Source: Schmidtea nova
Taxonomy: Eukaryota
DNA length: 64,000 nucleotides
Direction: 5' to 3'
NCBI GenBank assembly: GCA_044892505.1
Contig: CM097883.1
Location: 283,030,001-283,094,000, forward strand
Shown: positions 17,399 through 64,000 of the stretch, in pieces
Numbering within the stretch: position 1 is the first letter of the stretch
Layout of the letters: every line of letters begins with the position of its first letter
Translations under genes and position numbers: made by a program
The notes under the pieces: generated by a model
What the model saw: only the letters and a program-made list of their open reading frames with translations
Told to the model about the DNA's origin: nothing
Database searches by the model: none

Positions 17399-17732
17399 AT
17401 TAGACTTTTATTATTATAACAAATTTGATTTCAACAAAACACAAATGTTTTAAACGGAAAATCTATTCTACATGGAATAGTCCATAAGTGGTTTTTACAA
17501 CTTTCTGTGGATTTTATCTGAATATTTCTTCGGATATCTTCATCCGGCTCTGCGAATTTTCTTAGACTTGAATTTCAGGTCATCGGTCGGTTTTTCGCAG
17601 TCTCTCTCTCTACACTCTAACTCTCTTCAAAACGATTCATATAATTGCACAAACTAATTTATTTATTTACAAAAGTAATTTGGTATTTATAAACAAAGTT
17701 TAATTTTAATTACAAAAATTTATTTACATTAA

Positions 17733-20700
17733 TTACGCAAGGTCTGGAATAAAACCTCTAGTATGATGGTACCAGATTTTGGCCGCATATGCAATATTGC
17801 TTATATCACATTCTTTCAGCAGACCTTTACTTTGTTCTCTGGGACACCTGTTTTAACTAAAAGATAAGAGGTTTTTATGTCAACTGATCCTAAGGAGCCT
17901 ATTATGCATGTTAATAATTCAACTTTGTAATCTGGCATAACCTTTTGAATGTCTAATTTTAATTCATTATATTTATTTAAATTTAATTTATCAATCTGTT
18001 CATAGTTAGATACAGAACCGATTGGACACTTCACGTCAATTAGAAAGATAGTCTTTTTCTCTGTATTTGTGATTATCAAATCAACACGTTCAGTAGAGTT
18101 TGGGACAAGAGAGCACGCGTGATTAACAACTACAATTAAAGCTGGATTTTTTAGCTCTTTACAGATATTATCGAGACAGGAATTGTGACGACTAGTAGCA
18201 AGTGTCTGAATTATTTTACAGGTTTGAAGGACATGTAACATTGTCTCGTCTTCTAATTTACAACGACGACAAAGACGTTCCCCGTCAGTTTTAAACGGTT
18301 TGGCAAATGTTGAAAGTGTATTTGTCCGAGCACGATGGATAAATTTCCATTCAAACTCAGTCAAATCACTACGGAAAATTAATTTTATTGACGAATGGGC
18401 ACAGCTTTATTGCATATATCAGTAAGTTGCTGTTATTACTTTCTTCCCATTTTCCAAGTAAGAATCTTGAATGAAAAATCTTAGATACTGCTTTTCTTAA
18501 AGTTGGTAACACGATTCTTGTACCAGGTTCACCATTAACTGTTTCAAAAAGAATCTTGATATTATGAACTCTGCTAAAGTACGCGATTGATGTTCGTAGG
18601 CGATAGTATCTTGTTTTTCTGCTATTATGACTAGGTTTGCTTTCTTTTCCATTAACCCACTGCAAACTCTGAGAAAGAGTTGGGTTCTTTACTCCAAGTC
18701 CTGGACCTGTCACAAATAACAGTAAATCTGTGCTTATTTTTTTGAATAACCACAAGTCGACGTTAATAAACGAAAAAAAGTACACAATTGTTTGCGCGTG
18801 ATATACGTCTAAAAGATCAATGCATCCAGCTCCTCCATGTTCAACAGAATTATAGAAGTAACTGATCTCAGAGTGATTTAGTAGATTCAGTATCCTTCGC
18901 AACTGACTTCTCAATAAGCTGGTATTATTGACATTAATCTTTGGATTTTTAGATGGATCAGTAAGAGAGCTGGTTTTGATTTCTCTTGTCCTAAATAGGA
19001 ATATTAGACGAGAATGCAAAAAGATCTTGTAAGCCTTGAGTTTCTGCCAGCCATAGAGATCAGAGTTTGCAATTTTCTTTGTATCCTCAATGACTTTTTT
19101 TAACGATTTCGTATGGACTCTGATCATTGTTATCGCCTATTGGGACGCCCAGATATTGGTAAAAGTCATTGTTGGTAATTTTCTTAATATATTTGTTATT
19201 GACATGAATTTCGGTAATGGTTTCTGCTTTTGGGTATTCGATATAAGCACACTTTTCTGGACGATATTCGAATCCAATTTCATTAGCAGTATTAACAGAC
19301 ACGTCAAATAAATTTTGTAGATCAACAGTATTTGTGGCAACAAGAGCAATGTCACCAGCATATGCCAATACTTGTACAGAAGATGTACCAATCATGAATG
19401 GATTAATGCTAGATGAAGTAACAGCATTCAGTACAGGGTTTATGGCAATTGCAAAGAGGATCATTGATATTGGACAACCTTGCTTGACTCCTTGTTTAAT
19501 TTCAATGTTTGGAGACTGGAGTTTATTACAGCAGTAAAATGAACTTGTTCCAGTATACAAAAGTTTAATTATATCAACAAAGTCGTTACTAACAATTATG
19601 TGACGGAGAAGTGACCACATATAATCATATGGAACACTTCCAAAGGCATCCTTTATATCCAGCCAAGCAATAGAAACTGGTGATGATTTGCAAGATTTAG
19701 TGTATTCAACAATCGCAGAAAGTACTGAATTATGTTCAATGCAACCTTCATATTCTGAACCACCTTTCTGGCCAATATGCAACATGAAGTTATCTTTAGT
19801 CCAGGTGCCAAGACATTTTGCAAGAATAGAAGCAAAGAATTTATAGAATCCTGAAAGAAGAGCAATTGGACGCCATGAGGAGACTTTATGATACTGTTCA
19901 TTTTTATCCGGCTTAGGAATTAAAATTGTTTTGAATGATTTCCAGCTAGTTGGAATCATCTTTGTTTCGATAATTTTATTATAGAGAAATGATAAAAGTT
20001 TTCCCTCAGGATCAAGTAAAGCAAGGTCTTTATAGCATATATTATTGAGTCCTGGTGAAGTATTATCAGCTTTCTGAAGGATTGATAAGACATCTTTAGG
20101 CGTAATTTATCTAGATTTAATATTATTTTAGAGATCTTACTAAATTTATGAATATTCTCCCAATTATTAATTAAAGGATCAGGTAGACTGAATGAGTCGA
20201 TTATATCCTGAAAGCTAAGTTCCTCAGACACGCTGTCATCATTTAAAATTCTATATACTGTCCCTTCCATATTACTCATGAATTCAGTAGAATTTTAAAA
20301 TTTATTTACTTTATTAAATTTTGTCCCTAAATATGGTGTAGGGATTTTATTCTGAATTTGATTTTGAAGTCGTGGAATATTATCGATATGGTGTTGATAA
20401 TCTCGTCTAAATTGGAATTTGACAATTTAATTAAAAGTCTATTTACCTTTTCCTTACGCTGGAGTAAATTTAATGTTGAGGCCCTAACTGCTTTTAATTT
20501 GATGCGTCTCTCATTTTCGACATTATAGATTTTGGTAATTATTGGAACTAAAGATTCGATAACATTACCAATTTCATGTAACTTTATATTTGTTAAGGGT
20601 ATATCCAGCGTAAAGTTTCGAATAAAGGCACAGATTAGTAGTTTATTGAAAAGCCCAGACCCCTTTATGTCATGAGGACATGTAACATTAATCATTGCAC

Positions 20701-22277
20701 GTCCAACACTTTCTCTCAACTCATTGATTTTAAGTCGTATCCTATTGCAGTAGCGTTCTGTAATCGGATTTATTTCAAGAGTTACTGGACTTAAAATGTA
20801 GTGTTGATCTGCTTCATAATCAATTACCATAAGTAAATCATGAACTGTTGGAGGGGAAATTATTGTAAAATTTACGTCTGCTTTCATCATAGACTCAATA
20901 TTCAAAAAGTCCTTCAAATATTGAGTGCAATCATCAAAGATTGCACTGCGTAACGTTTTGTTAAACAGGATATATTTGTCAGATAATTTTAGATTAGTAA
21001 AATATTCATCTATGATGTTATCAGTTATTTTACCATTGATTAGACTGAGGCCAGGAGAAATTTCGCTGCACGCTTTGCTTTTAATTTTACTAAGCACCAC
21101 AAACACTTTATCATGATCGAAAATTCTCTGAAAAACTAATCTTTCAACTAGCACAATGAACATTGATGCAAAGTATTGATTATCATAAGAGAAGAATGTT
21201 GTATGCGAAATTTCATGATTAGCCTCAAATTCAATTCTTCGATTAAGAAAAAATTGATTGAGATAATCAGTAATTTTTCAGCCAATTTCCCTTAGCCTCT
21301 CATCTATATTTCGATAATTAAAATCAAAAATATAGCTTGTGTTTAATTTAGTAGAGTAGATAGAAAGGCACCAGTCATTGAATTTAGGGATAATACTGAT
21401 GACATGTTCAATTCCTTTAAATTGTTTGAAAGTTACGTAGTCTTTTATATAGTTGTCATTTTGCGCAATAAGATTATTTGTTAATTCCACACTCAGAACT
21501 GCTATTTGAGTATTAGTCTCATAATATTTCGTAATTAAGGATGATATGCATGGATTTTCGTTCATTAAGATTTTGGCAACTTTTACAGAGTTATTTATTG
21601 CTTTCTTTTTAGCAATTGCTTTCTTGATATTAATTGCTGTTACATCCATTGGCCGATTAGCACCCCCTAACAATTTCGGCGTCTGCTTTTGGTATTGATG
21701 AACATCTTCTCTAATTTCTTCGATGAACCCATCTGGAAAGTAGTTCCACTCTCTGCTAATAATCACTGCATAAGCGCAAGTGAAAGGCCCAGTCGAAGCT
21801 GTTGTCTTGGTATTTAAGATAGTTGTGGGGATTTGGTAATATTCTCGCGTTTAAGTTGAAGTCCATATTGATTGCAATGTTCAATTTTCGAGTCATTTGT
21901 TTATTGATCAGCTTGTTGCGAATATTAAAAATTGGATCAATGAAGTAGGAAGACAGAGATTTCCTACAATAGACAAAAAGGATCCAATGTGAGTTGTTGA
22001 TGTTGATGGGACAGAAGATAACTTAGGCTCTTGTAAGTGATGGGGGTATTGGAACAATCTCTTCTTGAATGTTTGAACAGAGAATGCTCACTAGATAACA
22101 TTTGATATGTGCATGGATTGGATTTTCAATGTGGTTCTCCAGATACCGGTCAATATCAAAATCGGCAAACCACATTTCAGAATCGCGATCTTTATGCAAT
22201 AAACTATTAATAATTATTGTGCTCTCTGCATCAGTCTCATTTGGAGAAACGACTGAGGCTTGAGCTGATGCAGGCAC
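17733..22277 (-). pseudogene. Lineage-B ORF2 (Ulp1-like x3, RT, CCHC knuckle, RLE), multiply frameshifted
   Basis: WRPIALL, QGVKQGCP, YAGD (degraded YADD), CRRC..H..C, ERVDL..DVKCP, ends KIWYHHTRGFIPDLA* at 17733. Confidence 0.9.
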
Positions 22278-22286
22278 ACATCCTCA
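22219..22286 (-). promoter_or_regulatory. Putative UGA readthrough signal, lineage B (AAA TGA GGA TGT + 59-nt stem-loop)
   Basis: In-frame TGA at 22284-22286; arms GTGC-CTGCATCAG and CTGATGCAG-AGA-GCAC. Function inferred. Confidence 0.65.
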
Positions 22287-24789
22287 TTTAGCAATTGAGG
22301 TTTGTTTCTTTAAAGCTGTTGTTTTTGATTTTGATGCAGTTTTTTTGGTTATTTTCTGAGTTTCATTTACGCAGTCAGTGTTGGATTCTAAGCTGGTAAT
22401 AGCATTTAGTAGGCAGTTTCCACAGACATTAACATTTACTCCTTCTTTAATAACTAGGCATTTTTCCAGTGTGTTTCCACATTTAATGCACTTGATATCG
22501 TCATTTATTATTATGACTTCTTGCGTATTGACGATTTCAACAGGTTCTTCAATGTTGTCAATATTTTCTTCGATTTTTTCTTCAGTATTAACTTTAATAA
22601 CAATTTGCGTCAGTTCTTTTACGATATTCGAAATTTCATTTGCCATTTCCGACGTGCAATGTTTTTTGCAGTTTTCAAAGAGACGAAACTTGATTTTTGC
22701 TTTTTAATCTTTTAAAGTCTCTCAACATAAAATAGATTAATCTCTTTGATTTTGATCCATGCATATCATCGGAAACCTTGATATTATTTAAAGTTTCCAT
22801 TAATTTATTTACAATTTTACCGTGTTCGATTTCATTCGGATATTTTATGTCAATAATATCAAGAAAGATGTTTAGAGAAGATATCTTTTCAGGAGAAATT
22901 AGGTTGTGAATCTTATTAATTTCACCAGATATCTTCCATTGTTTGAGTTTAAGGAGCTTTTCCTGGCAACTAACAAAATAATATGACAATTTTGGGATTT
23001 TTTCAACAATATTTGCCCCCAATATTCAAAGTCATCTATTGAAAGTAACGATATATCGTTTAGTGAACATGTCGATGTTATCAAGCTACAGTTTCTTATA
23101 TAGTTTCTAACATAGTCAGCATATGTTTGATTTTGTAAGAATTCCAGAGACCCTGTTAGTCCTAAATAATTAAGATAAAAAACAATTTCAACAGTTTTAG
23201 AATGACAGTTGTTTTTTAACAAAAGCAATTTTAAATTGTCATCATTGTTGGACATTGCCACAAGATCAAATAGACCAAGATTGAACATAATATCAGGTGC
23301 AGAAATTATTTCAGTTTTAGTTTCATTCGATTGGTAAAATTTCCCATCCTGATAGAAGATGTTGTTTGGAAATTTACTATTTTTCTTAAGATCAGTAATG
23401 ATTTTAACAATAAAAGATGATTTTGATACTGAATTCTCAACAAAGCAAGCTTTTGATAGAAGGAAACGTTGAATATAGTTTACTAGTCTAAGATCTCGAA
23501 CGTTCACTAGCATTCATCAAAAAGTCAATATTTTCTGTAGATTTAATATCTGGATTTGTCAAATCTAGCAGAACAAAATCACCGTTTTTGTATTTTATTT
23601 TAGACCTTATCAAGTAATTAGGCAGTTGTTTGTTATTTATCAATTCAGTTAATATTTTATTGATTTTATTTCCCCTCTGTTTCTCATCTTTGATTGATAC
23701 AGTTTCAGCTAAATCTGCAGATAAATTAAAAAGAAACTTTTTAATTGACATAGGAGCAGCAATATAAACTGAAGAGGGAAATATTTTAATTATATTATCA
23801 TCACTTAAAGTTATTCTTTTAGCCGATACTTCAAGTTTATAAGATTTCAATTTATTTCGATTTTCATTATTATTTGATATAGAATGACTTTCAATATTCA
23901 GGGCCACACATAAATTTGAATTTCTATAAAAGAAATATTCAAATTCATGGATATTTATTAGGTTATTTCTCAATTCACTTGTTAATAAAATGTTGTTTAT
24001 TTTATTTAATTTTTCTCTAGATTCTTTAAGTTAAACTAGAGTAATAATTTCAGGGAAAGCTTTGAAAAGTCGCTGCCGTTCCCGCCTTGTAATGATACGG
24101 ACAAACGTTTTAAAAGTATATGAATTTTTACCATTATAATATTTTGAACTTTCACAGATTTGTGATTGCCTGTGACAGAAATCCTCAAATTTTATATTTA
24201 GGTAATTTTAGCTTTAGAATTTTGTGATTTCTCTTCAGAATTTATTTCAGGATTTTATAGTTTAGAATCCTTGTAGATAATATTAGATTATTATCTAAAT
24301 TAATTAAGTTATTTACATTATCTTTATTTAAATTCAAAATATCGCAATCATTTTTATTTACATTAGATTTAATATTACAATTAAGGTATTTAAAATTACA
24401 TAAATTTGTGCAATTTTAATCATTCAAAAGAGAATGAAAATGAGACAAAAAAAATTCTAACTTTTCCGAAAATTTCGAAATCCGTATTTCCAAAGCATGA
24501 ATATGTGAATTAGAAAAATCATTATCAGCAGATGAACATAATCCAAGTACGTTAGTTTAAAGTAATTTTTTAACCGAGCAATCAAGATTCTGAATAGGAT
24601 CACCGACAGAAGAAAGATAAGTTGAATTTCCATGAGAAACGTAATCCAAAATCGCTTGAGAAAAACGAATTTGTGAATTCAAAATAGAAATTAGTCCAAT
24701 ATTGTAATTTAATTTACTTTCCATGGTTGATTGATTTTGATATTGACTGACTTCATTTCAGCAAGCATATCGGTTGATTGATTAGTCAT
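22284..24789 (-). pseudogene. Lineage-B ORF1, frameshifted
   Basis: Fragments share FFYRN, AP..I.KFL..LS..LAETV, DIMFNLGLFDL, SCQEKLLK motifs with lineage A/C ORF1; candidate ATG at 24789. Confidence 0.85.
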
Positions 24790-24988
24790 CAGCAATAGAA
24801 TTTCTAACTTGGCGTTAAGTAGAGTTACACTTTTCTTTTCTTTTCGTATTCAATGTTTCTTATTCAAGTCAAAATCATGATGATGATTTATTGTCGAAAT
24901 GATCTAGAAAAGTTGGGTTTTAAAATGAATTGGTTTGTAAAACTAAAAATAGCAAAATTGAAAATTGTTGAAAAAATCCAAAAAATTA

Positions 24989-25061
24989 TGCCCCGAGTGA
25001 GGATCGAACTCACGACCTTCAGATTATGAGACTGACGCGCTACCTACTGCGCTATCGAGGC
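24989..25061 (-). tRNA. tRNA-Met: Elongator tRNA-Met (CAT)
   Basis: GCCTCGATAGCGCAGTAGGTAGCGCGTCAGTCTCATAATCTGAAGGTCGTGAGTTCGATCCTCACTCGGGGCA; cloverleaf, G1:C72 and TTC T-loop indicate elongator; T6 terminator follows. Confidence 0.97.
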
Positions 25062-25231
25062 GTTAAGTAGAGTTACACTTTTCTTTTCGTATTCAATATA
25101 TCTTATTCAAGTCAAAATCATGATGATGATTTATTGTCGAAATGATCTAGAAAAGTTGGGTTTTGAAATGAATTGGTTTGTAAAACTAAAAATAGCAAAA
25201 TTGAAAATTGTTGAAAAAATCCAAAAAATTA

Positions 25232-25304
25232 TGCCCCGTGTGAGGATCGAACTCACGACCTTCAGATTATGAGACTGACGCGCTACCTACTGCGCTATCG
25301 AGGC
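25232..25304 (-). tRNA. tRNA-Met: tRNA-Met (CAT), T66A variant
   Basis: Array copy with one acceptor-stem mismatch. Confidence 0.9.
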
Positions 25305-25474
25305 GTTAAGTAGAGTTACACTTTTCTTTTCGTATTCAATATATCTTATTCAAGTCAAAATCATGATGATGATTTATTGTCGAAATGATCTAGAAAAGTT
25401 GGGTTTTAAAATGAATTGGTTTGTAAAACTATAAATAACAAAATTGAAAATTGTTGAAAAAATCCAAAAAATTA

Positions 25475-25531
25475 TGCCCCGAGTGAGGATCGAACTCACG
25501 ACCTTCAGATTATGAGACTGACGCGCTACCT
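25475..25531 (-). pseudogene. tRNA-Met: tRNA-Met nt 17-73, interrupted by lineage-A copy 1
   Basis: Truncated at ...GCGCTACCT. Confidence 0.93.
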
Positions 25532-25583
25532 TTTAAAATTTTATTAATACAACAAGTTTTTTTATCTTTCTTTTTGAGAGGGC

Positions 25584-28500
25584 TCAAGTGTATAGTTCTA
25601 CAGAAAAATTTGGTTTCGCGACTTGTATTTTCTTTTTCAAGCTTTCGTACTTGGTCAAATTATCTTTATCTACATTTTCAAAATTAACCAAAGAGTCAAA
25701 AGGACATTTTATATCAACCATAAGAATGATCTTTTTATCATTGTTTGTTATTATTAAATCAACTCGTTCATTAGAATCAGATACATAAGAACAAGTGTGA
25801 TCTACAACTACAATCAGTGAAGGATCTTTCAAATGATTTACAATCTGTTGAAGGCATTCATTGTGTCGCCTAAGTGCTAAGGTTTGATGAACTTTACACA
25901 TTTGCAGAACATGAGGTAAAGTTTCCTCTGCGCTATGACAACGTCTACATAACCTATCCTCAAGCTTCCTTTAAGACTTTGAAAAATTGGCCAACGTGTT
26001 TGTTCGAGCACGATGAATGAATCTCCAGGAACTTTCACGCAATTCCCCTCTAAATATTGCTTTATTAATTTTAGGCGATAAACTAAATGTTATAGAGCCA
26101 CTAGTATTACTATTTTTCCATTTAGTAAAGTAAGAGTCAGAAAGAGCAAGGTGAAAGATTTTAGATATTGAGCGTCTGTCTAAGCAGGTTAATATGATTG
26201 TTCCTTTTTCAATTGTTGTCAGACGAATAATAGGCTCATTCTTCAATACTTCAAACGATATTGAAATGTTGTGCATTTTTTCAAAAAATTGAATGGCTGT
26301 TCTTGGCCGATAGAATCTTGTTTTCTTACCATAATGTAGTCTAACATTATCAGCTCCATTAAGCCAGTTAAAGCTATCCTGGAGTGATGGGTTATTCTTT
26401 CCAAGTCGAGGTCCAGTTACGTATTTTAAGGAATCCAAATTAATCTTTTTGGTAAAAGGACAGTTTGATGTAAAAAGGCGGAAGAAATGACTTAATGTTT
26501 GTGTATGATATTCATCGAGAAGATCAGTACAAGATGCTCCTCCATTTTCAATTGAGTTATAAAAATAACTGATTTCAGAATGACCAGACAAACTCATCAT
26601 CTTTCTCAAATGACTACAAAGTTTTGTTGTACTGTTTCCAACATTAGCTGAAAGAGCACTAATTTTAATTTCTCTTGTTCTAAAAGGAAATATTAGACGC
26701 GAGTGTAGAAAAACCTTGTAAGCTTTCAGCTTTTGCCAACCATACAAGTCTGAGTCGGCAAGCTTTTTTGCATCACTGACTACCTTATCAAGTATTTCAT
26801 AAGGACTTTGGTCAGCATCTTCACCTACTGGTACTCCAAGATATTGATAAAATTCTTTAGTTAATAATTTCTTGATGTTTATTTTATCAATAGTAATTTC
26901 ACTCACTGTGTCCACACTCGGCAGTTGAATGTATGCACATTTTTCAGGTCGATATTTAAAGCCTATTTCAGATGCAGTGTCGTACGCAATATTTATAATC
27001 GTTTGCAAGTCCTTAGCATTATTAGCAATAAGAGCAATATCGTCAGCATATGCAAGAACTTGTATTGAAGATTCACCAATTCTAAAAGGACTGACATTTG
27101 AAAGACTAACCGCTTGAAGAACAGGATTGATTGCAATAGCAAACAAGACCATTGAAAGAGGACATCCTTGTTTGACTCCTTGTTTTATTGCAATGTTTGG
27201 TGTTACAATCGGACCACAAGTATAGAAAGAGCTAGTATCAGTGTACAAAAGTTTTAAAATCCTAGTAAATTTCTCACTCATTCCAATATGACGCAAAATT
27301 GCCCACATGTAATCATGAGGTACACTACCAAAGGCGTCCTTAATATCAAGAAATGCAATAGTTAAAGGTTTATTTTTACTGTATTTCGAATGTTCAAGAC
27401 AAGATGAAAGTATGGAATTGTGTTCAACACATCCATCATGAACAGAACCTCCTTTTTGTCCAACATGAAGAACATTATTTAGATTTACTCACACTGTCAA
27501 ACGTCTAGCTAAAATTGATGAGAATATTTTGTAGACAACAGATAAAAGAGCAATCGGACGCCAAGAAGAGATTAAAGTATATTTATCACCCTTGTTAGGT
27601 TTAGGAATCATTAACGTTTTGAAGGATTTCCAAACGTCTGGAATTGTATTTTCCCTAATGATTTTATTAAATAAAAAGGTCAACAATGTACCCTCTGGAT
27701 CAAGAATTTCAACGTCCTTATATTCAATTCCATCAAGCCCAGGAGAAGTATTATCAGCGTTTTTCAACTCATAGAGTACCTCCTTTTCATTGATCAAATT
27801 CAAATTTAGAATATTTAAAGATTTAATTGCAAATTTAAAAATATTGTCATAATTCTTTGAAGTTGGATCTCTATGACTAAAATTATCTATGTGATCTTTA
27901 ATTGTTGGCCTATCCTTTATGTCGTCACTCATAAATATTTTATTTATTGTCTTTTTCATATTTTTATTAAAAGATGACGTCAAATTAATTTTAGATGGCT
28001 TGTCGTTATTTGTTTTGTTTCCCAAGTATGGCCTACGTAATTTAGTTAAATTGGATACTTCTTTACTTTTTGCAATAGTACTAATAATAAATTCCGCTAT
28101 TTCGTTAACATTTGAATTTTGTAGATTTAACAAATGCTCATTTATTAAAATTATACGTTGATTTATTTTAAGTTTAACATGTTGTTTTTCAATTTGTAAA
28201 GCCGTTAATGGAATTTCCATACATTCTTTTACAGGTGGTAAGAGAGAATTCACAACATTACCAATGTCATGTAAATTAATGTTTTCAAGAGACAAGTCTA
28301 GAGCGTAGTGCTTGATGAAAGCACAGATGAGAACCCTGCTTACAAGACCAGAACCTCGAACATCATGTGGACAATTACCAGCTTTACTACAAAGACCAGG
28401 AGATTCTCTTATTTCATTGATTTTAGTTAATAAGGCTTTAGCAGTAGATAAATAAGAAGCATTATTCTGTAACGTTGTTGGGTTTAATAAATAATGTTCA

Positions 28501-29975: not shown

Positions 29976-29984
29976 ATCCCATCA
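29917..29984 (-). promoter_or_regulatory. Putative UGA readthrough signal, lineage A copy 1
   Basis: AAA TGA TGG GAT GTG CCT GCA TCA G...CTGATGCAG AAT GCAC. Confidence 0.65.
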
Positions 29985-50093: not shown

Positions 50094-50150
50094 TGCCCCG
50101 AGTGAGGATCGAACTCACGACCTTCAGATTATGAGACTGACGCGCTACCT
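50094..50150 (-). pseudogene. tRNA-Met: tRNA-Met nt 17-73, interrupted by lineage-A copy 4
   Basis: Same junction as other A copies. Confidence 0.93.
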
Positions 50151-50648
50151 TTTAAAATTTTATTAATACAACAAGTTTTTTAATCTTTCTTTTTGAGAGG
50201 GCTCAGCTTGGAACCCGCCGTTCATTGAGTTTCTGCTCTAGAGAGACAAATTTCTTGTTTTTCGTAATTGAATTGTTGGAAGAAATATTGTCGTAACAGG
50301 CATCAATCTTTGAATGCTCTCTGGCTTCTCTGATGTTCTTCGGATAACAGTCCGGCTTTGCGCTTTCAGGTTTTTCAGGCTTATCTCTTGAAATTGGCAG
50401 ATTTATTTAGATTGAATAATTTTAAGTATGTCATTTTGGTTTGTAGTTCCATAGACTTTATATTCTTCATCAATCAGTTTTCGGTAATTCATTTCTCTGG
50501 AATAAAACAAAGTATTTCCTGACCAGGTTGACAGGTGTAGAATATATTTAATTATCAAAGTAATAATGATAAGATCATAAGCAAATAAACATTTATCTAA
50601 TCTAAAAACAACAATGATAACGAAAATATCTACAGTTTCTTTAAATAA

Positions 50649-55211: not shown

Positions 55212-55220
55212 ATCCCATCA
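55153..55220 (-). promoter_or_regulatory. Putative UGA readthrough signal, lineage A copy 4
   Basis: As copy 2. Confidence 0.65.
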
Positions 55221-57453
55221 TTTGGTGATCGCCTTTGATAATTTAACGTCTTTTCTAGTAGTCATCTTTCTACTGTCTGTATTTTTAATTGGCACACAAG
55301 ATGTATTCTCCGCATCAATATCAGTTTCTAAAAGAGTCGGTTTAATGATACCTGTATTATTTGAATCTACGACATTGGAGCTAACGCTAACATCTTTACA
55401 AGTGTCTTTAGAAATTTCAATAACATCAACAGATTCACTACTAGTCAGAAGATTTTCAAGAGAGTCAACAAGATCAAAGATAACCGAAGTCATTTCAGTA
55501 TTACAAATTTTACGACATTTAATTGGAACCTGAAAATCATCTATGTTCTTGTTCAAAAATCTTTTCTTGTCTCTTATTATAAAATATATCAGTCGTTTAG
55601 CCTTGATAATGTTAATGTCATCACACTCAGAACGGAATTCATTAATATGTGAAAAGACAGAGTCTATTGCATTCAGTTGATCAATTTTTAGGGGAAACAA
55701 GTTATTAATTAAATTTAAAAATTTATTAATTTTTTTAATTGTATCTTTTGAAATTATATTTTTTAATTTATCAATCTCGCAGGTCAGCATCCATCGTTTG
55801 AATTTTATTAATTTTTCCTGACAACTAATTCTAAAGTATGAAGTCGAAGGTATTTTTTCAACAAATTCAGAGCCCCATATTTCAAAAGAGTCAATAGTCA
55901 AGGAACCACATTTAACACAGTCTATAACCGAATGAATAAGTAAGGAATTACGGAAATAATTGAAAACATAATCATCGTAATTAATATTGCTTGAAAATTT
56001 AATATCACCCTTTAAGTTTAGATAATTAATATAGTAGATTAATTCCACAATCTTAATGGAAGAAGCAGGTGATGATAAAAGTTGATCTAAATGCTTATCA
56101 GTTCTAGACATTTCAAACAAATCAAATAACCCAATATTAAACATAATATCAGAGGCATGGCTAGAGTCAGCTTCTTTTATTGTAGGTTTACAATCAACAG
56201 TAAATTTACCATCTAAAAAAGAAATGTCCTTTGGAAAATCCTTATTTAATTTTAAACAATTAATTAAATCAATTAATTTTTCAGGATTCTTTGAAATATT
56301 TTCAATAAAAACCATTTCTTTTAGTTCAGGGTAATCAAGATAGAGTTTATTTATTTGTGATCTTGAAAGATTATTTGAAATTAATTCAACACCGGCATTA
56401 TGACAATTATCAGAAGTGGAAAAGTCTCTCATTATAAAGTCACCGTCAATATACCTTATTTCTGATTTAACAAGAAAGTCTGGCAATTGTTTTTGTAATT
56501 TTAATAAATCTAAGGCTTTATTAATAACGCTTCCCTTTTGGATTTCATTTTTATTAGAGACGGTTTCTGCCAATTTGCTTGAGAGAGCAAATAAAAATTT
56601 CCTTATCGCTAAAGGTGCAGAAATCATTTTAGATGAAAGATTAATTGAATTTATAATATCGCAAATAAATGTTTTCTTACTACTTACAGAAATTGAATTT
56701 TGAGATATTTCAGTTTTAGTTTCAACTACTTTATGTTTTTGATTTTTAATAAGTTTAATTGAAACGCAGAAATTGCAATTTCGATAAAAGAAATGATCAA
56801 CATCCTTAATACTCATGTTAAATTTTGAATTATTAATAAGTGAGATTTCCTTGTCAATAAGATCAAATTTTAAAGTAGAATTTTTCATTTTAATTAAATC
56901 TTTAAGGCGTGGAAAATTATTCAATAATGTACGGCGCTCATTTTTTGTTAAAAGTCTAGGTAAGAAATTAAATTGAAAGTTATCAACTTTAACATTACGG
57001 GTACCCTTATTAACTGTGACTTTAAGAGATTTAACAGGTTTATTGAGAGGAGTCTGAAAATCATGGCTAATAACAGGGGCATCAGGAACATTAACAACTG
57101 CTTCAACAAAAGAATTATCAGAATTGATACATAAATCATTTCTTGAAATAGGAACAAAAAGATTGTTATTTTTAGAAAAATCATTAATTGATAAATTATT
57201 ACCAGAATCATAATTATTTAAAGAAACATTAGAAACTTTAGTATTATCAAAACCATTAATGAAATCAGAGAAAATATTCAAATTACTCAAAATCAAATCA
57301 ATTTTACCTTGAATTGAAATAAAATTCTTTTCCATCTGATCCAATCTCTTTGAAAGTCCTTCGTCAGAAGCAGGTTTTGAAAATTCAGTTGCAGTAATTG
57401 ACTCCAAAATCGATTGATTTGAAATAATTTGATTTTTCAGAATATCAATTAAT
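55218..57453 (-). pseudogene. Lineage-A ORF1, copy 4, N-terminally truncated
   Basis: Begins ..LIDILKNQ; MKHTEITQ start missing; one T>I change. Confidence 0.8.
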
Positions 57454-57534
57454 ATATCAACTAAAAATAGCAAAATTGAAAATTGTTGAAAAAATCCAAA
57501 AAATTATGCCTATTATTATTAAAATTATTATTAA

Positions 57535-58169
57535 TAAATTTTGAATTATTAATAAGTGAGATTTCCTTGTCAATAAGATCAAATTTTAAAGTAGAATTTT
57601 TCATTTTAATTAAATCTTTAAGGCGTGGAAAATTATTCAATAATGTACGGCGCTCATTTTTTGTTAAAAGTCTAGGTAAGAAATTAAATTGAAAGTTATC
57701 AACTTTAACATTACGGGTACCCTTATTAACTGTGACTTTAAGAGATTTAACAGGTTTATTGAGAGGAGTCTGAAAATCATGGCTAATAACAGGGGCATCA
57801 GGAACATTAACAACTGCTTCAACAAAAGAATTATCAGAATTGATACATAAATCATTTCTTGAAATAGGAACAAAAAGATTGTTATTTTTAGAAAAATCAT
57901 TAATTGATAAATTATTACCAGAATCATAATTATTTAAAGAAACATTAGAAACTTTAGTATTATCAAAACCATTAATGAAATCAGAGAAAATATTCAAATT
58001 ACTCAAAATCAAATCAATTTTACCTTGAATTGAAATAAAATTCTTTTCCATCTGATCCAATCTCTTTGAAAGTCCTTCGTCAGAAGCAGGTTTTGAAAAT
58101 TCAGTTGCAGTAATTGACTCCAAAATCGATTGATTTGAAATAATTTGATTTTTCAGAATATCAATTAAT
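57535..58169 (-). mobile_element. Tandem duplicate of the 5' ~635 bp of lineage-A copy 4
   Basis: 716-bp offset duplicate of 56819-57453 including its junction. Confidence 0.93.
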
Positions 58170-58222
58170 ATATCAACTAAAAATAGCAAAATTGAAAATT
58201 GTTGAAAAAATCCAAAAAATTA

Positions 58223-58295
58223 TGCCCCGAGTGAGGATCGAACTCACGACCTTCAGATTATGAGACTGACGCGCTACCTACTGCGCTATCGAGGC
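58223..58295 (-). tRNA. tRNA-Met: tRNA-Met (CAT)
   Basis: Consensus array copy. Confidence 0.97.
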
Positions 58296-58465
58296 GTTAA
58301 GTAGAGTTACACTTTTCTTTTCGTATTCAATATATCTTATTCAAGTCAAAATCATGATGATGATTTATTGTCGAAATGATCTAGAAAAGTTGGGTTTTGA
58401 AATGAATTGGTTTGTAGAACTAAAAATAGCAAAATTGAAAATTGTTGAAAAAATCCAAAAAATTA

Positions 58466-58538
58466 TGCCCCGAGTGAGGATCGAACTCACGACCTTCAGA
58501 TTATGATACTGACGCGCTACCTACTGCGCTATCGAGGC
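58466..58538 (-). tRNA. tRNA-Met: tRNA-Met (CAT), C32A variant
   Basis: Anticodon loop ATCATAA. Confidence 0.88.
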
Positions 58539-58708
58539 GTTAAGTAGAGTTACACTTTTCTTTTCGTATTCAATATATCTTATTCAAGTCAAAATCATGA
58601 TGATGATTTATTGTCGAAATGATCTAGAAAAGTTGGGTTTTGAAATGAATTGGTTTGTAAAACTAAAAATAGCAAAATTGAAAATTGTTGAAAAAATCCA
58701 AAAAATTA

Positions 58709-58781
58709 TGCCCCGAGTGAGGATCGAACTCACGACCTTCAGATTTTGAGACTGACGCGCTACCTACTGCGCTATCGAGGC
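58709..58781 (-). tRNA. tRNA-Met body with CAA anticodon
   Basis: + strand AGATTTTGAG vs consensus AGATTATGAG: anticodon CAT>CAA. Confidence 0.85.
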
Positions 58782-58951
58782 GTTAAGTAGAGTTACACTT
58801 TTCTTTTCGTATTCAATATATCTTATTCAAGTCAAAATCATGATGATGATTTATTGTCGAAATGATCTAGAAAAGTTGGGTTTTGAAATGAATTGGTTTG
58901 TAAAACTAAAAATAGCAAAATTGAAAATTGTTGAAAAAATCCAAAAAATTA

Positions 58952-59024
58952 TGCCCCGAGTGAGGATCGAACTCACGACCTTCAGATTATGAGACTGACG
59001 CGCTACCTACTGCGCTATCGAGGC
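58952..59024 (-). tRNA. tRNA-Met: tRNA-Met (CAT)
   Basis: Consensus array copy. Confidence 0.97.
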
Positions 59025-59194
59025 GTTAAGTAGAGTTACACTTTTCTTTTCGTATTCAATATATCTTATTCAAGTCAAAATCATGATGGTGATTTATTGT
59101 CGAAATGATCTAGAAAAGTTGGGTTTTGAAATGAATTGGTTTGTAAAACTAAAAATAGCAAAATTGAAAATTGTTGAAAAAATCCAAAAAATTA

Positions 59195-59267
59195 TGCCCC
59201 GAGTGAGGATCGAACTCACGACCTTCAGATTATGATACTGACGCGCTACCTACTGCGCTATCGAGGC
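59195..59267 (-). tRNA. tRNA-Met: tRNA-Met (CAT), C32A variant
   Basis: Same change as 58466. Confidence 0.88.
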
Positions 59268-59437
59268 GTTAAGTAGAGTTACACTTTTCTTTTCGTATTC
59301 AATATATCTTATTCAAGTCAAAATCATGATGATGATTTATTGTCGAAATGATCTAGAAAAGTTGGGTTTTGAAATGAATTGGTTTGTAAAACTAAAAATA
59401 GCAAAATTGAAAATTGTTGAAAAAATCCAAAAAATTA

Positions 59438-59510
59438 TGCCCCGAGTGAGGATCGAACTCACGACCTTCAGATTTTGAGACTGACGCGCTACCTACTGCG
59501 CTATCGAGGC
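59438..59510 (-). tRNA. tRNA-Met body with CAA anticodon
   Basis: Same change as 58709. Confidence 0.85.
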
Positions 59511-59680
59511 GTTAAGTAGAGTTACACTTTTCTTTTCGTATTCAATATATCTTATTCAAGTCAAAATCATGATGATGATTTATTGTCGAAATGATCTAGA
59601 AAAGTTGGGTTTTGAAATGAATTGGTTTGTAAAACTAAAAATAGCAAAATTGAAAATTGTTGAAAAAATCCAAAAAATTA

Positions 59681-59753
59681 TGCCCCGAGTGAGGATCGAA
59701 CTCACGACCTTCAGATTATGAGACTGACGCGCTACCTACTGCGCTATCGAGGC
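59681..59753 (-). tRNA. tRNA-Met: tRNA-Met (CAT)
   Basis: Consensus array copy. Confidence 0.97.
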
Positions 59754-59923
59754 GTTAAGTAGAGTTACACTTTTCTTTTCGTATTCAATATATCTTATTC
59801 AAGTCAAAATCATGATGATGATTTATTGTCGAAATGATCTAGAAAAGTTGGGTTTTGAAATGAATTGGTTTGTAAAACTAAAAATAGCAAAATTGAAAAT
59901 TGTTGAAAAAATCCAAAAAATTA

Positions 59924-59994
59924 TGCACCGAGTGAGGATCGAACTCACGACCTTCAGATTATGAGACTGACGCGCTACCTACTGCGCTATCGAG
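59924..59994 (-). pseudogene. tRNA-Met: tRNA-Met nt 3-73 (G70T), interrupted at nt 2/3 by lineage C
   Basis: ...GCTATCGAG then TAAACATTT instead of GC. Confidence 0.92.
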
Positions 59995-62900
59995 TAAACA
60001 TTTATTAATTATAATAAGTTTGACAATTTGTGTACATGGGACTTTACTCTACTTGGAGTAAGCCATTGATTAGATTACAAAAACAAAGGAGACAGATTTT
60101 CAAAATAAATGATATACACAACATAGTTTGAGAAAAAGTTTGTCTCAAAAGTCTTGCATCTTTTCAGTTGTCCTTGGCACTGATGTGACATTGTCTTCGG
60201 ATTTTCCGGCTTTGCAATGACTGATCATTTTTTATTTTAATTTATTAGACATCTTTTTAAACTTAAATAATCTTGTATTTAAGACCATTTTTCCCGCAGG
60301 TTCTTCAATCAGTTGTGCAGCAATGTTTCTTTGTCTAAATTAGGCTTTTACAAAGTGTAAAAGTCAATTATATTTATGTTTCTCTTTTACGAGAAAGTAC
60401 TTTATACAAAAAAAATATTTACATTACCTACAAGTATATACATAGAAAAAAAAGGACACTTATATCTATGGTAATGCCTGCAGTTTCAACTTTTGATATA
60501 GTTTTTCTTGAAATAATTTTATTAATTAATCATATTTATGATATTCATTGAGTTTCCCTGTAATGTGATAATACCATATCTTAGCTGAATTTGTTATATT
60601 GCTTATCGCACATTGCCGCAATAAATCCTTTATAGATGAGCTACTAATTCCAATTTTCAAGAGCAAATCTGTAGTTTTTGGTGAAATTGATCCTAAAGAT
60701 CCGATAATGCATGTATCGAGTTCGACGGAAAAGTCCGGTTTGACAACCTGTATTTCATTTTGAAGATTTTTGTATTTATTAAGATTTAATTTATGGACTT
60801 GTTTAAAATTGACAACAGTGTCGATGGGACATTTGATATCAACCATAAAAATCTTTTTTTTTTCATTGTTGGTGATCAGTAAGTCAACTCTTTCATTGGA
60901 TGCTGGAACGTACGAACAAGCGTGGTCAACAACCACAATAATATTAGGATTTTTTAAGTTTTCTACAATCAATTTCAGACAGTCATTGTGTCGCTTTGAA
61001 ACTAAAGATAAGTTAACTGTACAAGATTGTAATGCATGCGTCATGGATTCGTCTTCAATGTGACATCTACGACAAAGTCTTTGAGCTCCTTGTTTGTAAG
61101 GTTTAGCGTTGAATGACAAGGAATTTGTGCGTGCACGATGAATAAAATTCCAAGCAAACTCAGATAAATCTCCTCGAAAAATAGCTTTGTTTATTATTGG
61201 GGATAGCTGAATCATATTTACTAAAAAGTTTGATGTGTTACTTTTTTGCCATTTGATTAGATATGCATCATTTAGAGCTAAATGAATTATTTTTGACGTA
61301 GATTTACGAAAGGCCGAACTCAAAATATAAGTGCCACGCATTTTTGTTGTTATATGAAGTGATATTTCATTATCGAGAAATTGAAATGATATTTTAATAT
61401 CATGAGTCTTTTCAAAAAATTTGATTGCTGTTCTTGCTCTTTGAAATCTTGTTTTCTTTCCTGAACTTGTATATTTGCATTCAAGACCATTGATCCAATT
61501 GAAACTTTCTTGAATTGAAGGATGTTTGAGTCTTAGTCGTGGACTAGTGACATAGTTCATTGAGTCGATGTTTATTTTCCTGGCATATTCACATTTAGAT
61601 GTAAAAAGACGAAAGAAATGTGTAATACTCTGTGTGTGATACTCATCAAGAAGATCAACACAAGCCGCGCCACCATTTTCAGTGGAATTGTAAAAGTAGG
61701 CATTCTCTGAATTATTAGGCAGATGCATCATTTTTCTTAAATGATTTCGTAATCTTCCAGTATTGTTAATGGAATGATCTTTATTCTTAAACGTATTTGA
61801 AAGGACAGTTGTTTTGATTTCCCTAGTTCGAAATGGGAAGATCAAGCGAGAATGAATAAACACTTTATAGGCTTTGAGCTTTTGCCACCCAAGAAGATCA
61901 GAATCAGCTATCTTCTTGGTATCCGAAATTACTTTCTCCAAAATTCCATATGGATTTTGGTCATTTTCCTCTCCTACTGGTACTCCTAGGTATTGATAAA
62001 ATTCATTTGAAAGTAATTTTCGAATTTTCGTGCCATTGATCGACATTTCACTGTCAATATGAACCTGGGGCAGTTGAAGATATCCGCATTTGTCAGGGCG
62101 ATATTCAAAGCCAATTTTTGTTGCAATGTCGACAGCAATATTTGTAATTTTTTGCAGGTCTTCAACAGATTTTGCAACGAGCGCAATGTCGTCGGCGTAT
62201 GCGAGTACTTGAACTGGCGATTTGCCAATCTTGAAAGGTGCAACATTAGATTTACTGATTGCTTCAAGAACCGGATTGATAGCCAAGGAAAACAATATCA
62301 TCGAAATAGGACATCCTTGTTTAACCCCTTGTTTGATTGGTATATTCGATGTTACAATTGGGCCACAACTATAGAAAGAACTTGTGTCCGTGTACAGCAT
62401 TTCTAAGATCAAAATGAACTCATTGCTTACTCCAATGAATCGAAGTAAAGTCCAGATGTATTGATGAGGGACGCTTCCAAAAGCATCTTTAATATCCAGC
62501 CAAGCAATTGCAAGTGGACGGGTTAAGCTATATTTTGAGTGCTCAAGTGCAGCTGAAAGAATGGAGTTATGTTCCACACATCCATCGTGACTTGAGCCTC
62601 CTTTTTGTCCCATGTGCAACAGATTATTGGAATATATCCAAGCAGTTAGACGACTAGCTAATACTGATGCAAAAACTTTGTATATGACTGATAACAAGGC
62701 AATTGGGCGCCAAGATGAAACACTGTCATATTTCCCATCTTTGTCAGGCTTCGGTATCAGCAAGGCTTTGAAGGACTTCCAGCTTGTTGGTATAATTTTA
62801 TCGGCAATGATTTTATTGTATAAATATGTAAGTAGTTTCGCCTCTGGGTCAAAAACAATGATATCACTGTATCGAAGGCCATCAAGGCCAGGAGAAGTGT

Positions 62901-64000
62901 TGCTAGCTCTTTTTAGTTCAAATAATACTTCCTTCGGTGTAAATACATTAAGATACAATGTGTTGAGAGAAACGTTGCAGAATTTAAGAATGTCATTACA
63001 GAATTCTAGTTTAGGCTGATGATGAGTAAAGAACTTAGTAATGTCCTGGATAGTTGGTCGGACATTTTCGTCAAAGTTGTTTAAAATTTTATTTATTGTT
63101 TCTTTCATCTCTGTTAGAAATAGCATTGTGAGTTTAGCCTTGTTTATTTTTACATTTGTTTTTGGTTTATTGCCTAAATACGGCTTATGTTCTGATTTTT
63201 CACGTTTAGGGATTTCTCTAATAAATACGTCAATGATTTCATCTATATTCAATTTAGAGATGGTTGTTAAGATTTCATTTATTTTATTTTTACGCTGTGT
63301 CAAATTAGGATTAGCAGATTTGATTAATTTAATTTTGTTTGTTGCTTTAAGTTTGTTGACCTCACTGAGAACAGGTAAGATTGACCTTATGGTATTCCCA
63401 ATATCTCTCAAGTTTATTTTTTCTAGTGGTCTGTCATGTGCATAGTTTTTGATGAAAGCACAAACAAGTATGTTACTAATAAGACCTGAACCACGAACAT
63501 CATGTGGACAGTTGCCAGTTACCACAGCACGATCTAAAGAGCCTCGAATTTCATTAATCTTATTTAAAAGAGTTTTACAAACAGATGAGTAGTTATCATC
63601 AATTAATAATGTTGTTGGATTAAGATAATAATGCTCATCTGTGTTGTAGTCAATGACGAATAAAATTTCACGGGATTTAACGGGGGCCACAATAGTAAAT
63701 ATGACTTGTGCCTTGGCAAGGTAATCAAAGTTTAGGAAATCACTCAAATATTGCGTGCAACCCTCAATGATAGCATTGCACATTGTGACGTTTAATAACA
63801 TAAAGCTTTCTGATAAGTTTAAGTTTGTGTAGAAGTCTGTTATTGTTTTATCAGAGATTTTACAATTTATTAAGTTTAAGTCCTGACAAATCTCATTTGT
63901 TTGTTTGAGTTTAATAGATTTTAATGAGTTTAATACATCTTCATTCAAGATAATTTTACCAAAGATTAATTTTTCAAGCAAGGCTATAAAAACTGAAGCA
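59995..64000 (-). mobile_element. Lineage-C non-LTR retrotransposon, apparently intact 3' part (continues beyond window)
   Basis: ~530-bp 3' UTR then uninterrupted ORF2; 3' junction in tRNA-Met. Confidence 0.96.
60526..64000 (-). CDS. Lineage-C ORF2 (partial at 5' end): Ulp1-like domain 3, RT, CCHC knuckle, RLE, uninterrupted
   Basis: >=1151 aa open; YADD, CRRCHIEDESMTHALQSC, ERVDL..DIKCP all intact. Confidence 0.95.
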   Translation of the reverse strand, partial: ASVFIALLEKLIFGKIILNEDVLNSLKSIKLKQTNEICQDLNLINCKISDKTITDFYTNLNLSESFMLLNVTMCNAIIEGCTQYLSDFLNFDYLAKAQVIFTIVAPVKSREILFVIDYNTDEHYYLNPTTLLIDDNYSSVCKTLLNKINEIRGSLDRAVVTGNCPHDVRGSGLISNILVCAFIKNYAHDRPLEKINLRDIGNTIRSILPVLSEVNKLKATNKIKLIKSANPNLTQRKNKINEILTTISKLNIDEIIDVFIREIPKREKSEHKPYLGNKPKTNVKINKAKLTMLFLTEMKETINKILNNFDENVRPTIQDITKFFTHHQPKLEFCNDILKFCNVSLNTLYLNVFTPKEVLFELKRASNTSPGLDGLRYSDIIVFDPEAKLLTYLYNKIIADKIIPTSWKSFKALLIPKPDKDGKYDSVSSWRPIALLSVIYKVFASVLASRLTAWIYSNNLLHMGQKGGSSHDGCVEHNSILSAALEHSKYSLTRPLAIAWLDIKDAFGSVPHQYIWTLLRFIGVSNEFILILEMLYTDTSSFYSCGPIVTSNIPIKQGVKQGCPISMILFSLAINPVLEAISKSNVAPFKIGKSPVQVLAYADDIALVAKSVEDLQKITNIAVDIATKIGFEYRPDKCGYLQLPQVHIDSEMSINGTKIRKLLSNEFYQYLGVPVGEENDQNPYGILEKVISDTKKIADSDLLGWQKLKAYKVFIHSRLIFPFRTREIKTTVLSNTFKNKDHSINNTGRLRNHLRKMMHLPNNSENAYFYNSTENGGAACVDLLDEYHTQSITHFFRLFTSKCEYARKINIDSMNYVTSPRLRLKHPSIQESFNWINGLECKYTSSGKKTRFQRARTAIKFFEKTHDIKISFQFLDNEISLHITTKMRGTYILSSAFRKSTSKIIHLALNDAYLIKWQKSNTSNFLVNMIQLSPIINKAIFRGDLSEFAWNFIHRARTNSLSFNAKPYKQGAQRLCRRCHIEDESMTHALQSCTVNLSLVSKRHNDCLKLIVENLKNPNIIVVVDHACSYVPASNERVDLLITNNEKKKIFMVDIKCPIDTVVNFKQVHKLNLNKYKNLQNEIQVVKPDFSVELDTCIIGSLGSISPKTTDLLLKIGISSSSIKDLLRQCAISNITNSAKIWYYHITGKLNEYHKYD

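What the first reader, a model, noticed from the sequence alone, without database searches (positions are those of the whole stretch)
17399..64000. Three retrotransposon lineages partition one 73-nt elongator tRNA-Met gene
Seen: every element is in the tRNA's orientation and every 3' junction is inside the gene, but lineage-specific: A at nt 16/17 (25531, 32921, 41414, 50150), B at about nt 19/20 (17398, with nt 1-3 left at 24811-24813), C at nt 2/3 (59994). A and B destroy the Pol III A-box; C leaves both boxes. Known: RLE elements of the NeSL (SL1), R5 (28S) and Utopia (U2) group are sequence-specific, and from memory some planarian Repbase LIN families were reported in tRNA arrays, so tRNA targeting itself may not be new. 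Several co-resident lineages with offset cut sites in a single tRNA gene parallels R1/R2 niche partitioning in 28S and offers a natural series for studying RLE specificity.
Basis: partly seen in the sequence, partly recalled or inferred. Interest (0 to 1): 0.85.

Follow-up and report, generated by a model that had tools for sequence, protein, structure and literature searches.

The report
Flatworm retrotransposons hopping between tRNA arrays
A tandem array of tRNA-Met genes carries several related jumping genes, each at its own position, but only one is confined to this tRNA, and all share a conserved stop codon followed by an RNA hairpin that probably lets ribosomes read through into their protease, reverse transcriptase and nuclease.

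Summary
The junctions are real (A nt 16/17, B 19/20, C 2/3 of elongator tRNA-Met), but 'three lineages partition one gene' fails its own test. Only C is Met-specific (4 of 4 copies with a 3' end). A sits just before the D-loop GG of Met, Cys, Thr and Tyr genes (14 of 15 ends in tRNA, 7 in Met). Its four window copies share a nonsense codon and look like one insertion duplicated with the array. B is a dispersed TTA-associated family (62 of 62 other ends outside tRNA). Two further lineages hit the Met arrays outside the window. The elements resemble planarian R5/LIN (NeSL clade) families, already reported in tRNA-Arg and tRNA-Glu genes. What looks new: a radiation of at least ten lineages with offset cut sites; a 32-nt piece of Met spacer carried into a Cys array; and an in-frame UGA plus 3' hairpin between ORF1 and the protease-RT-endonuclease ORF (UGA in 462 of 479 motif matches; stem codons frozen). 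Programmed readthrough is my best reading (about 0.6), untested.

The parts
17347..17398 (-). Decayed tRNA-Met remnant (from nt 20) at the 3' junction of B
17399..24810 (-). Lineage B element, 7412 nt, many stops and frameshifts, 91-94% identical to a dispersed TTA-associated family
22219..22286 (-). B: ORF1 UGA (22286-22284) and 3' hairpin
24811..25531 (-). tRNA-Met units: nt 1-3 at B's 5' junction, two intact genes, remnant from nt 17
25532..32303 (-). A copy 1; internal deletion of about 615 nt near the 3' end; extra nonsense codons
32922..40310 (-). A copy 2: ORF1 773 aa from the ATG at 40310, UGA 37991-37989, ORF2 Ulp1-like protease, RT, zinc knuckle and RLE, with a nonsense codon at 33980-33978
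37924..37991 (-). A: in-frame UGA, 6-nt spacer and conserved stem-loop (same at 29917-29984, 46417-46484, 55153-55220)
40310..40341 (-). 32 nt of tRNA-Met spacer that also stand at the 5' end of A copies in tRNA-Cys arrays but not in intact Cys spacers
41415..48803 (-). A copy 3, 1 nt different from copy 2
50151..58169 (-). A copy 4, 5' end rearranged (about 690 nt duplicated)
32311..32921 (-). tRNA-Met units between A copies 1 and 2
40311..41414 (-). tRNA-Met units between A copies 2 and 3
48804..50150 (-). tRNA-Met units between A copies 3 and 4
58175..59994 (-). tRNA-Met units (two with CAA anticodon) and the remnant from nt 3 at C's 3' junction
59995..64000 (-). 3' part of lineage C (whole element 7584 nt, runs past the window; ORF1 797 aa, UGA, ORF2 1525 aa, both open)
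11252..17233 (-). Older, rearranged C copy (89-99% to C by piece) with the same 5' junction in the spacer; UGA and hairpin at 14847-14914; 3' end lost

Best explanation
The window is the edge of a large tRNA-Met tandem array used as a landing pad by a young radiation of R5/LIN-type RLE retrotransposons. Each lineage's endonuclease cuts at a short DNA motif, so its position in the tRNA is fixed but its choice of gene follows the motif. C takes nt 2/3 of tRNA-Met. A takes the base before the D-loop GG in any isotype that fits. B mostly takes AT/TTA-rich DNA and hit one tRNA once. Insertion is by target-primed reverse transcription, which gives a precise 3' junction and an upstream deletion without target duplication. 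Transcripts can begin in the upstream spacer; that would let the cDNA end anneal upstream and give uniform 5' junctions, and it let one A copy carry Met spacer into a Cys array. Copies then multiply passively with the array. ORF1 is the main product. The protease-RT-endonuclease is most likely made by leaky decoding of a conserved UGA, helped by the hairpin behind it, as an ORF1-ORF2 fusion that the Ulp1-like protease may process. Shown: junctions, target spread, shared lesions, the transduced spacer, and conservation of UGA and stem. Inferred: motif recognition, TPRT, cDNA annealing, readthrough (about 0.6), and self-processing (about 0.3).
For: Junction tables. A: 14 of 15 ends at the D-loop site (7 Met, 3 Cys, 2 Thr, 2 Tyr), elements 97-100% identical over the 3' end. 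A2, its sister, sits at nt 29/30 of tRNA-Thr in 27 of 27 listed ends and in AGT genes. A and A2 are 96% identical in the protease but 73% in the zinc knuckle-RLE. Passive duplication: window copies 2-4 differ by 1-2 nt in 7.4 kb, share a rare flank variant, and all four share the nonsense codon absent from 9 other copies. Transduction. UGA: 462 of 479 motif matches, reversed-pattern control 0; 100 of 100 listed when TAA, TAG and TGG were allowed. Hairpin: z -1.0 to -4.6 over 19 distinct variants, 18 below -2.4. Identical codons at 4 of 6 four-fold columns in the first 22 codons versus 3 of 118 in the rest of ORF2; all columns 5 of 8 versus 32 of 493, Fisher p 8e-5. The first ORF2 Met is at residue 57-171, behind the protease's WFxD motif in 8 of 8 lineages. 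Ten of the 12 closest outside homologues begin at the same V-P-A position or lack it; see the full report.
Against: No DNA-level compensatory change in the stem among 10 lineages; 418 of 500 shuffles reach the same pairing, and one central pair is a mismatch in 3 of 10. The base after UGA is A, T or G, never the C of classic leaky contexts. The B and E single hits both fall in the gene's first 27 nt rather than the AT-rich spacer, which hints at some general tRNA-gene attraction. C's specificity rests on about three independent events, all in one pair of arrays. No named R5 or LIN protein was available for the tree.
Confidence: 0.75

Rival explanations
1. One reading: three dedicated lineages stably partition the single tRNA-Met gene, as R1 and R2 do in 28S.
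For: Offset sites are real; C is Met-only in 4 of 4 copies; A has occupied the Met arrays at least twice and seeded the Cys copy from there.
Against: B: 62 of 62 other ends outside tRNA. A: 8 of 15 ends outside Met. D: 2 of 96 listed ends in Met. Window A copies are probably one event.
Confidence: 0.07
2. ORF2 is made by termination-reinitiation at the invariant GUG six bases after the UGA, the hairpin acting like the downstream structure of SART1, not by readthrough.
For: GTG is invariant in 10 of 10 lineages. A review states that SART1 coupling needs a downstream structure. R2 protein needs no Met start. No C at +4.
Against: The GUG is itself paired in the stem, which explains its conservation. 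The two frames are in phase with a fixed two-codon spacer. The stop is always UGA, although TAA would serve termination as well in this AT-rich genome. The AUG overlapping the stop is in another frame and closes within the stem (read).
Confidence: 0.25
3. The elements are drawn to tRNA arrays by chromatin or Pol III factors (TFIIIC), and the cut position is set by geometry rather than DNA sequence.
For: All 15 Met-array junctions lie in nt 2-27, in or near the A-box, including the stray B and E hits. A and D use equivalent positions across isotypes.
Against: D shifts from nt 19/20 in Asp to nt 13-15 in Met, where a similar motif lies; E is at nt 26/27 in Met, about nt 43 in Thr, and mostly in a non-tRNA repeat. 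Close relatives use microsatellites and satellites.
Confidence: 0.15
4. The hairpin and stop serve something other than decoding (packaging or protein binding, splicing, editing), or the pattern is an assembly artefact.
For: No covariation. The near-identical A copies and the three identical Cys contigs could include assembly duplicates.
Against: The motif recurs in hundreds of copies on all three large contigs and in lineages only 60-84% identical in RT-RLE. No conserved splice donor is visible. The UGA lies outside the stem.
Confidence: 0.1

Closest known systems
Planarian LIN families of the R5/LIN lineage, NeSL clade: LIN15_SM (tRNA-Arg), LIN25_SM (tRNA-Glu), LIN9/24/26_SM (28S); Kojima and Jurka 2015, PMC4640811 (seen: passages, section 6, parts 1-2 of 3 of S6 Fig)
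   Same: RLE elements inside tRNA genes in sense orientation. AT-rich 3' ends with AATAAA look alike by eye. LIN15 uses four Arg isoacceptors; LIN25 cuts near nt 4/5 and also hits another tRNA and tRNA-like sequence; the one LIN15 5' junction shown is not at the cut site.
   Different: The passages read say nothing of co-occupied tRNA arrays, cross-isotype D-loop targeting, or a two-ORF readthrough layout.
Utopia in Phytophthora U2 arrays (same paper, section 6)
   Same: Several families in one small-RNA array; precise 3' ends; intact gene upstream because the 5' fragment is deleted.
   Different: Utopia families share one site (U2 nt 38/39) and generally encode one protein; here the sites are offset and there are two in-frame ORFs.
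R2 and R1 in 28S rDNA (PMC5035012, PMC13580325; passages seen)
   Same: Upstream target replaced on insertion in some fish R2 (110-130 bp); upstream sequence kept on the RNA anneals as the cDNA end.
   Different: R2 is confined to one gene and encodes one ORF. No ribozyme family was found in the window (Rfam). Lineages here move between genes.
Dada DNA transposons (PMC8869645; passages seen)
   Same: Related families take orthologous A-box and anticodon sites in different tRNA genes by sequence similarity.
   Different: DDE DNA transposons with target duplications, not retrotransposons.
Readthrough signals with a 3' structure: alphavirus UGA, MuLV gag-pol, Drosophila kelch (Firth et al. 2011, PMC3159437; passages seen)
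   Same: Stop codon, short spacer, stem of 12 or more pairs, frozen synonymous sites, polymerase downstream.
   Different: Spacer 6 nt (up to 3 nt shorter where the stem extends) versus 7-9; no C at +4; host is a non-LTR retrotransposon; function not tested here.

Membership tests
R5/LIN lineage (NeSL clade, RLE non-LTR retrotransposons) | Non-LTR reverse transcriptase | tested here: met
   Pfam RVT_1, E 7e-30 (A) and 1e-27 (C)
R5/LIN lineage (NeSL clade, RLE non-LTR retrotransposons) | C-terminal CCHC knuckle and restriction-like endonuclease | tested here: met
   CxxC-x8-H-x4-C, RHN/RHD, RVD..D[IVML]K..KY visible in 10 of 11 lineage proteins (the eleventh is truncated). Motif names are recalled; Pfam gave only a weak nuclease hit (E 0.028).
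R5/LIN lineage (NeSL clade, RLE non-LTR retrotransposons) | Ulp1-like cysteine protease before RT (described for NeSL and Utopia-1_TSP) | tested here: met
   Peptidase_C48 above cut-off in 3 of 3 ORF2 proteins that include the region; His and Cys present in 8 of 8; paper passage
R5/LIN lineage (NeSL clade, RLE non-LTR retrotransposons) | Phylogenetic grouping with named R5 or LIN sequences | tested here: inconclusive
   No named R5 or LIN among 120 listed hits. Quick tree groups this genome's 11 lineages (SH-aLRT 94) inside a clade of unnamed protease-bearing proteins. 3' ends resemble LIN24/LIN25 by eye.
R5/LIN lineage (NeSL clade, RLE non-LTR retrotransposons) | Precise 3' junction in a multicopy RNA gene | tested here: met
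   A, C, D, A2; not met for B
R1/R2-type niche partition of one gene | Each co-resident lineage confined to that gene at its own site | tested here: not met
   Met only for C; A 7 of 15 ends in Met, D 2 of 96, B 1 copy against 62, E 1 copy
Programmed stop-codon readthrough with 3' structure | Conserved in-frame stop between two coding regions | tested here: met
   UGA in 462 of 479 matches and in 10 of 10 lineages aligned
Programmed stop-codon readthrough with 3' structure | 3' stem with synonymous-site conservation | tested here: met
Programmed stop-codon readthrough with 3' structure | Compensatory base changes | tested here: inconclusive
   None in DNA; one implied by paired Ser/Asp to Pro/Gly change in one outside clade, from protein only
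Programmed stop-codon readthrough with 3' structure | C or CUA/CGG directly after UGA | tested here: not met
   A, T or G in 10 of 10; Drosophila kelch also lacks it
Programmed stop-codon readthrough with 3' structure | Fusion protein made in cells | not testable with these tools
   needs reporter, ribosome profiling or proteomics

The most novel reading that the evidence does not exclude
Planarian R5/LIN elements are non-LTR retrotransposons expressed like a gammaretrovirus or alphavirus: ORF1, a leaky UGA with a hairpin, then protease-RT-endonuclease as one polyprotein. They have radiated into at least ten lineages that tile tRNA genes of many isotypes at offset sites, with a sister pair (A and A2) whose change of site maps to the endonuclease end of the protein.
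Probability: 0.45. Interest if true: 0.75.

Novelty: new variant of a known kind. Interest (0 to 1): 0.52.

Why it matters
RLE retrotransposon proteins are being developed as site-specific gene-insertion tools, and what sets their target choice is only partly known. This genome holds close relatives (60-84% identical in RT-RLE) that cut at nt 2/3, 16/17, 19/20 or 29/30 of tRNA genes, or in microsatellites, several with open ORFs. The A/A2 pair makes specificity directly testable by domain swap. If readthrough holds, it adds a mode of ORF2 expression that I did not find reported for non-LTR elements and gives the NeSL-type protease a plausible job.

Tried and rejected
Non-standard genetic code as the cause of the in-frame stops: rejected. 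The TAA before the endonuclease is a Tyr codon in 9 other copies, and ORF2 ends at TAA or TGA. Array variants as repair scars at cut sites: 34 variant rows tabulated; some fall at nt 1-2 or delete nt 8-19, but they are spread by array duplication and others lie elsewhere, so no conclusion. A separate tRNA-specific B subfamily: not needed, since B's 6-9% divergence matches the decay of the adjacent old C copy and tRNA remnant. ORF1 identity: no Pfam family, no homologue among 8000 scored candidates, no Atlas hit, model pLDDT 67 and pTM 0.34 with no fold match at E <= 0.001 in PDB or BFVD; Gag-likeness is therefore unsupported. Rfam found only tRNA. Expression: no RNA holder listed; no reads were laid, so splicing and editing at the UGA are untested. 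The original R5 and NeSL-1 papers are not held and Repbase could not be consulted. Earlier findings of the scan: none. The careful tree did not finish; the quick tree was used.
Full report
1. Observation. The window is G000:C2:283030001-283094000 of a 1.25-Gb genome. From 17347 onward it holds a minus-strand tandem array of a 73-nt elongator tRNA-Met gene in a 243-bp unit, broken by 7-8 kb elements on the same strand. The array goes on past the window: ARAGORN counts 295 genes in the 154 kb from the window start and 93 in a second 110-kb stretch 0.5 Mb away. In those stretches 15 elements have a readable 3' end and all 15 join within nt 2-27 of the gene. An independent genome-wide pattern search (AATAAA within 58 nt of the Met T-arm) returned the same 15: A x7, C x4, D x2, B x1, E x1. 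D (nt 13-15) and E (nt 26/27) are further lineages outside the window.

2. What the elements are. ORF2 carries Peptidase_C48 (Ulp1-like) and RVT_1 above cut-off and ends in a CCHC knuckle and a restriction-like endonuclease motif (motif names recalled). ORF1 (743-957 aa in 9 lineages) is conserved among lineages but matched nothing. A quick tree of RT-RLE (46 rows: 11 lineages from this genome and 35 of the 120 listed hits) groups the 11 together (SH-aLRT 94), with C sister to an Ile-array lineage and A sister to A2. Kojima and Jurka 2015 (PMC4640811; passages, section 6 and two of three parts of S6 Fig seen) report planarian LIN families of the R5/LIN lineage in tRNA-Arg, tRNA-Glu and 28S genes. 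Their 3' ends look like those here, and the tRNA-Glu sequence in the figure matches the flanks. I infer a planarian host and R5/LIN affinity; no named R5 or LIN protein was on hand to test it.

3. Lineage A is position-specific, not Met-specific. Its 3' end has 15 matches. Fourteen sit one base before the D-loop GG: 7 in Met, 3 in Cys, 2 in Thr and 2 in an intron-bearing gene that I read as Tyr(GTA) (ARAGORN labels it Pro). One 89%-identical copy is outside tRNA. The four window copies are weak evidence: copies 2-4 differ by 1-2 nt, are followed by the same rare spacer variant, and all four share a nonsense codon ahead of the endonuclease that 9 other copies lack. An element without its endonuclease spreading as a block with its flanks points to array duplication of one insertion (inference; copy 1 differs by 44 nt and could be a second event or a converted copy). 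The three Cys copies are identical and may be one locus.

4. A moved from a Met array into a Cys array. Met-array A copies join the spacer after 76 of 170 nt (7 of 8; window copy 4 is rearranged). The Cys copies begin with 32 nt of that Met spacer, which intact Cys spacers lack. So an A transcript included upstream Met spacer. The same feature could give uniform 5' junctions by annealing of the cDNA end upstream, as described for R2 (PMC13580325, passage); identical 5' junctions therefore do not by themselves prove duplication. No target duplication is seen; about 61 nt (C) and 110 nt (A) upstream of the cut are missing, like Utopia in U2 arrays and some fish R2 (PMC5035012, passage).

5. Lineage B is not a tRNA element. 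Its 3' end gave 213 candidates, 40 scored and 30 fetched; only the window copy touches a tRNA. An exact-pattern search lists 62 ends, none in tRNA, about 50 by eye running into TTA or TAA tracts (the pattern misses the window copy and copies with C at its last position). The tract is partly tail and partly target: of 10 full-length candidates, 7 showed a 5' end and 2 of these lie in TTA tracts. The window copy is broken in many places and as decayed as its neighbours. Its junction AAT|TAG resembles the family's AAT|TAT.

6. Lineage C is the one Met specialist. Four copies have a 3' end, all at nt 2/3, all with open ORFs of 797 and 1525 aa. They differ by 4-23 nt, so about three events. An older C copy with the same 5' junction lies at 11252-17233. 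C leaves both promoter boxes but replaces nt 1-2 and the upstream flank.

7. The wider radiation. D-type ends: of 105 matches 100 are listed, 96 of them D-type: 51 Asp, 28 Glu, 11 His, 2 Met, 1 Leu, 1 Thr, 2 non-tRNA. His and Asp copies are 98% identical to D; Glu copies were not checked. A2 sits at nt 29/30 of tRNA-Thr in 27 of 27 listed ends. The Thr(CGT/TGT) array also holds A, E and a lineage at nt 18/19. Others: Ile nt 1/2, Gly(TCC) nt 19/20, Leu and Arg near nt 5/6. E mostly enters a non-tRNA repeat (4 of 5 E loci with a 3' end). Co-occupancy with offset sites is thus a general property of these arrays, not of the Met gene. A versus A2 identity falls from 96% (protease) and 91% (RT) to 73% (knuckle-RLE).

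8. The ORF1-ORF2 junction. In every lineage ORF1 ends Lys-UGA and ORF2 continues in frame. The motif has 462 genome matches with UGA and 479 with any codon; the reversed control has 0. With TAA, TAG and TGG allowed, 100 of 100 listed (of 167) are UGA. Six bases on begins a stem of about 4+13 pairs with a 20-22 nt loop. Synonymous positions in it are frozen: 4 of 6 four-fold columns against 3 of 118 elsewhere in ORF2 (8 lineages, related, so the p-value of 8e-5 is indicative only). The first ORF2 Met lies behind the protease's WFxD motif in 8 of 8 lineages and behind the catalytic His in 4 of 8, so AUG initiation cannot give a whole protease. Among outside homologues (41-60% identical), 10 proteins (P0001-P0004, P0006-P0010, P0015) were called starting M-P-A or alike, the V-P-A position; 9 of them keep the second arm's peptide 9-14 residues on. 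P0005, P0011 and P0012 start elsewhere. Ser goes with Asp in 3, Pro with Gly in 5 and Thr with Gly in 1; the Pro/Gly change would restore a pair, but the five form one clade and their DNA was not seen. Against: no double change in DNA among 10 lineages, a central mismatch in 3 of 10, and no C at +4. This layout matches the readthrough signals described by Firth et al. 2011 (PMC3159437, passages). The main rival is reinitiation at the GUG, by analogy with SART1 (PMC5972666, passage).

9. What is in print. tRNA targeting by LIN families, multi-family small-RNA arrays and orthologous-site targeting by Dada (PMC8869645, passages) are known. Searches (listings only, apart from the papers named) found no account of these targets or of co-occupied planarian tRNA arrays. 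Searches found no readthrough report for such elements. The R5 and NeSL-1 papers were not held; Repbase Reports, the third part of S6 Fig, the other supplements of PMC4640811 and the STITCHR inventory were not seen and may bear on novelty.

10. Verdict. Observation confirmed; interpretation partly supported. A new variant of a known kind.

Noticed in passing
window 58709-58781 and 59438-59510: Two array units carry a CAT to CAA anticodon change on a tRNA-Met body (5 in the 154-kb stretch); if expressed and charged they could misread Leu codons.
   Followed up: no
G000:C2:283128000-283177000 (L090-L095): At least 24 array units have TG in place of GC at nt 1-2, the C cut site, and 9 have a 12-nt deletion between two TAGCGC repeats covering the A and D sites; scars, resistant alleles or ordinary drift.
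   Followed up: partly
ORF1 of 9 lineages; window about 38090-38100: An invariant Asp-Ile-Asp motif and a basic tail precede the UGA by 30-40 residues; a possible processing or RNA-binding signal.
   Followed up: no
L126, L132, L133, L135, L146, L147, L149: Lineage E and one other lineage insert next to the same dispersed GC-rich repeat with a heptamer tract, possibly a transposon end.
   Followed up: no
L142, L143, L144, L148: An abundant lineage inserts at one site of a clustered non-tRNA repeat on C1 (204-212 Mb); the target was not identified.
   Followed up: no
L099:1131-8480: An A copy in the Thr array is a mosaic: 5' part like A2, 3' half 99-100% A; it uses A's cut site, which fits the C-terminal half setting the site.
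   Followed up: partly
L108: D copies stacked head to tail, each followed by an Asp or Asp/Gly hybrid tRNA remnant.
   Followed up: no
window 3037-3726: 29-bp minisatellite, about 24 copies.
   Followed up: no
window 8838-9649: Fragments of a further, more distant element of the same family (41-52% protein identity to A) left of the array.
   Followed up: no
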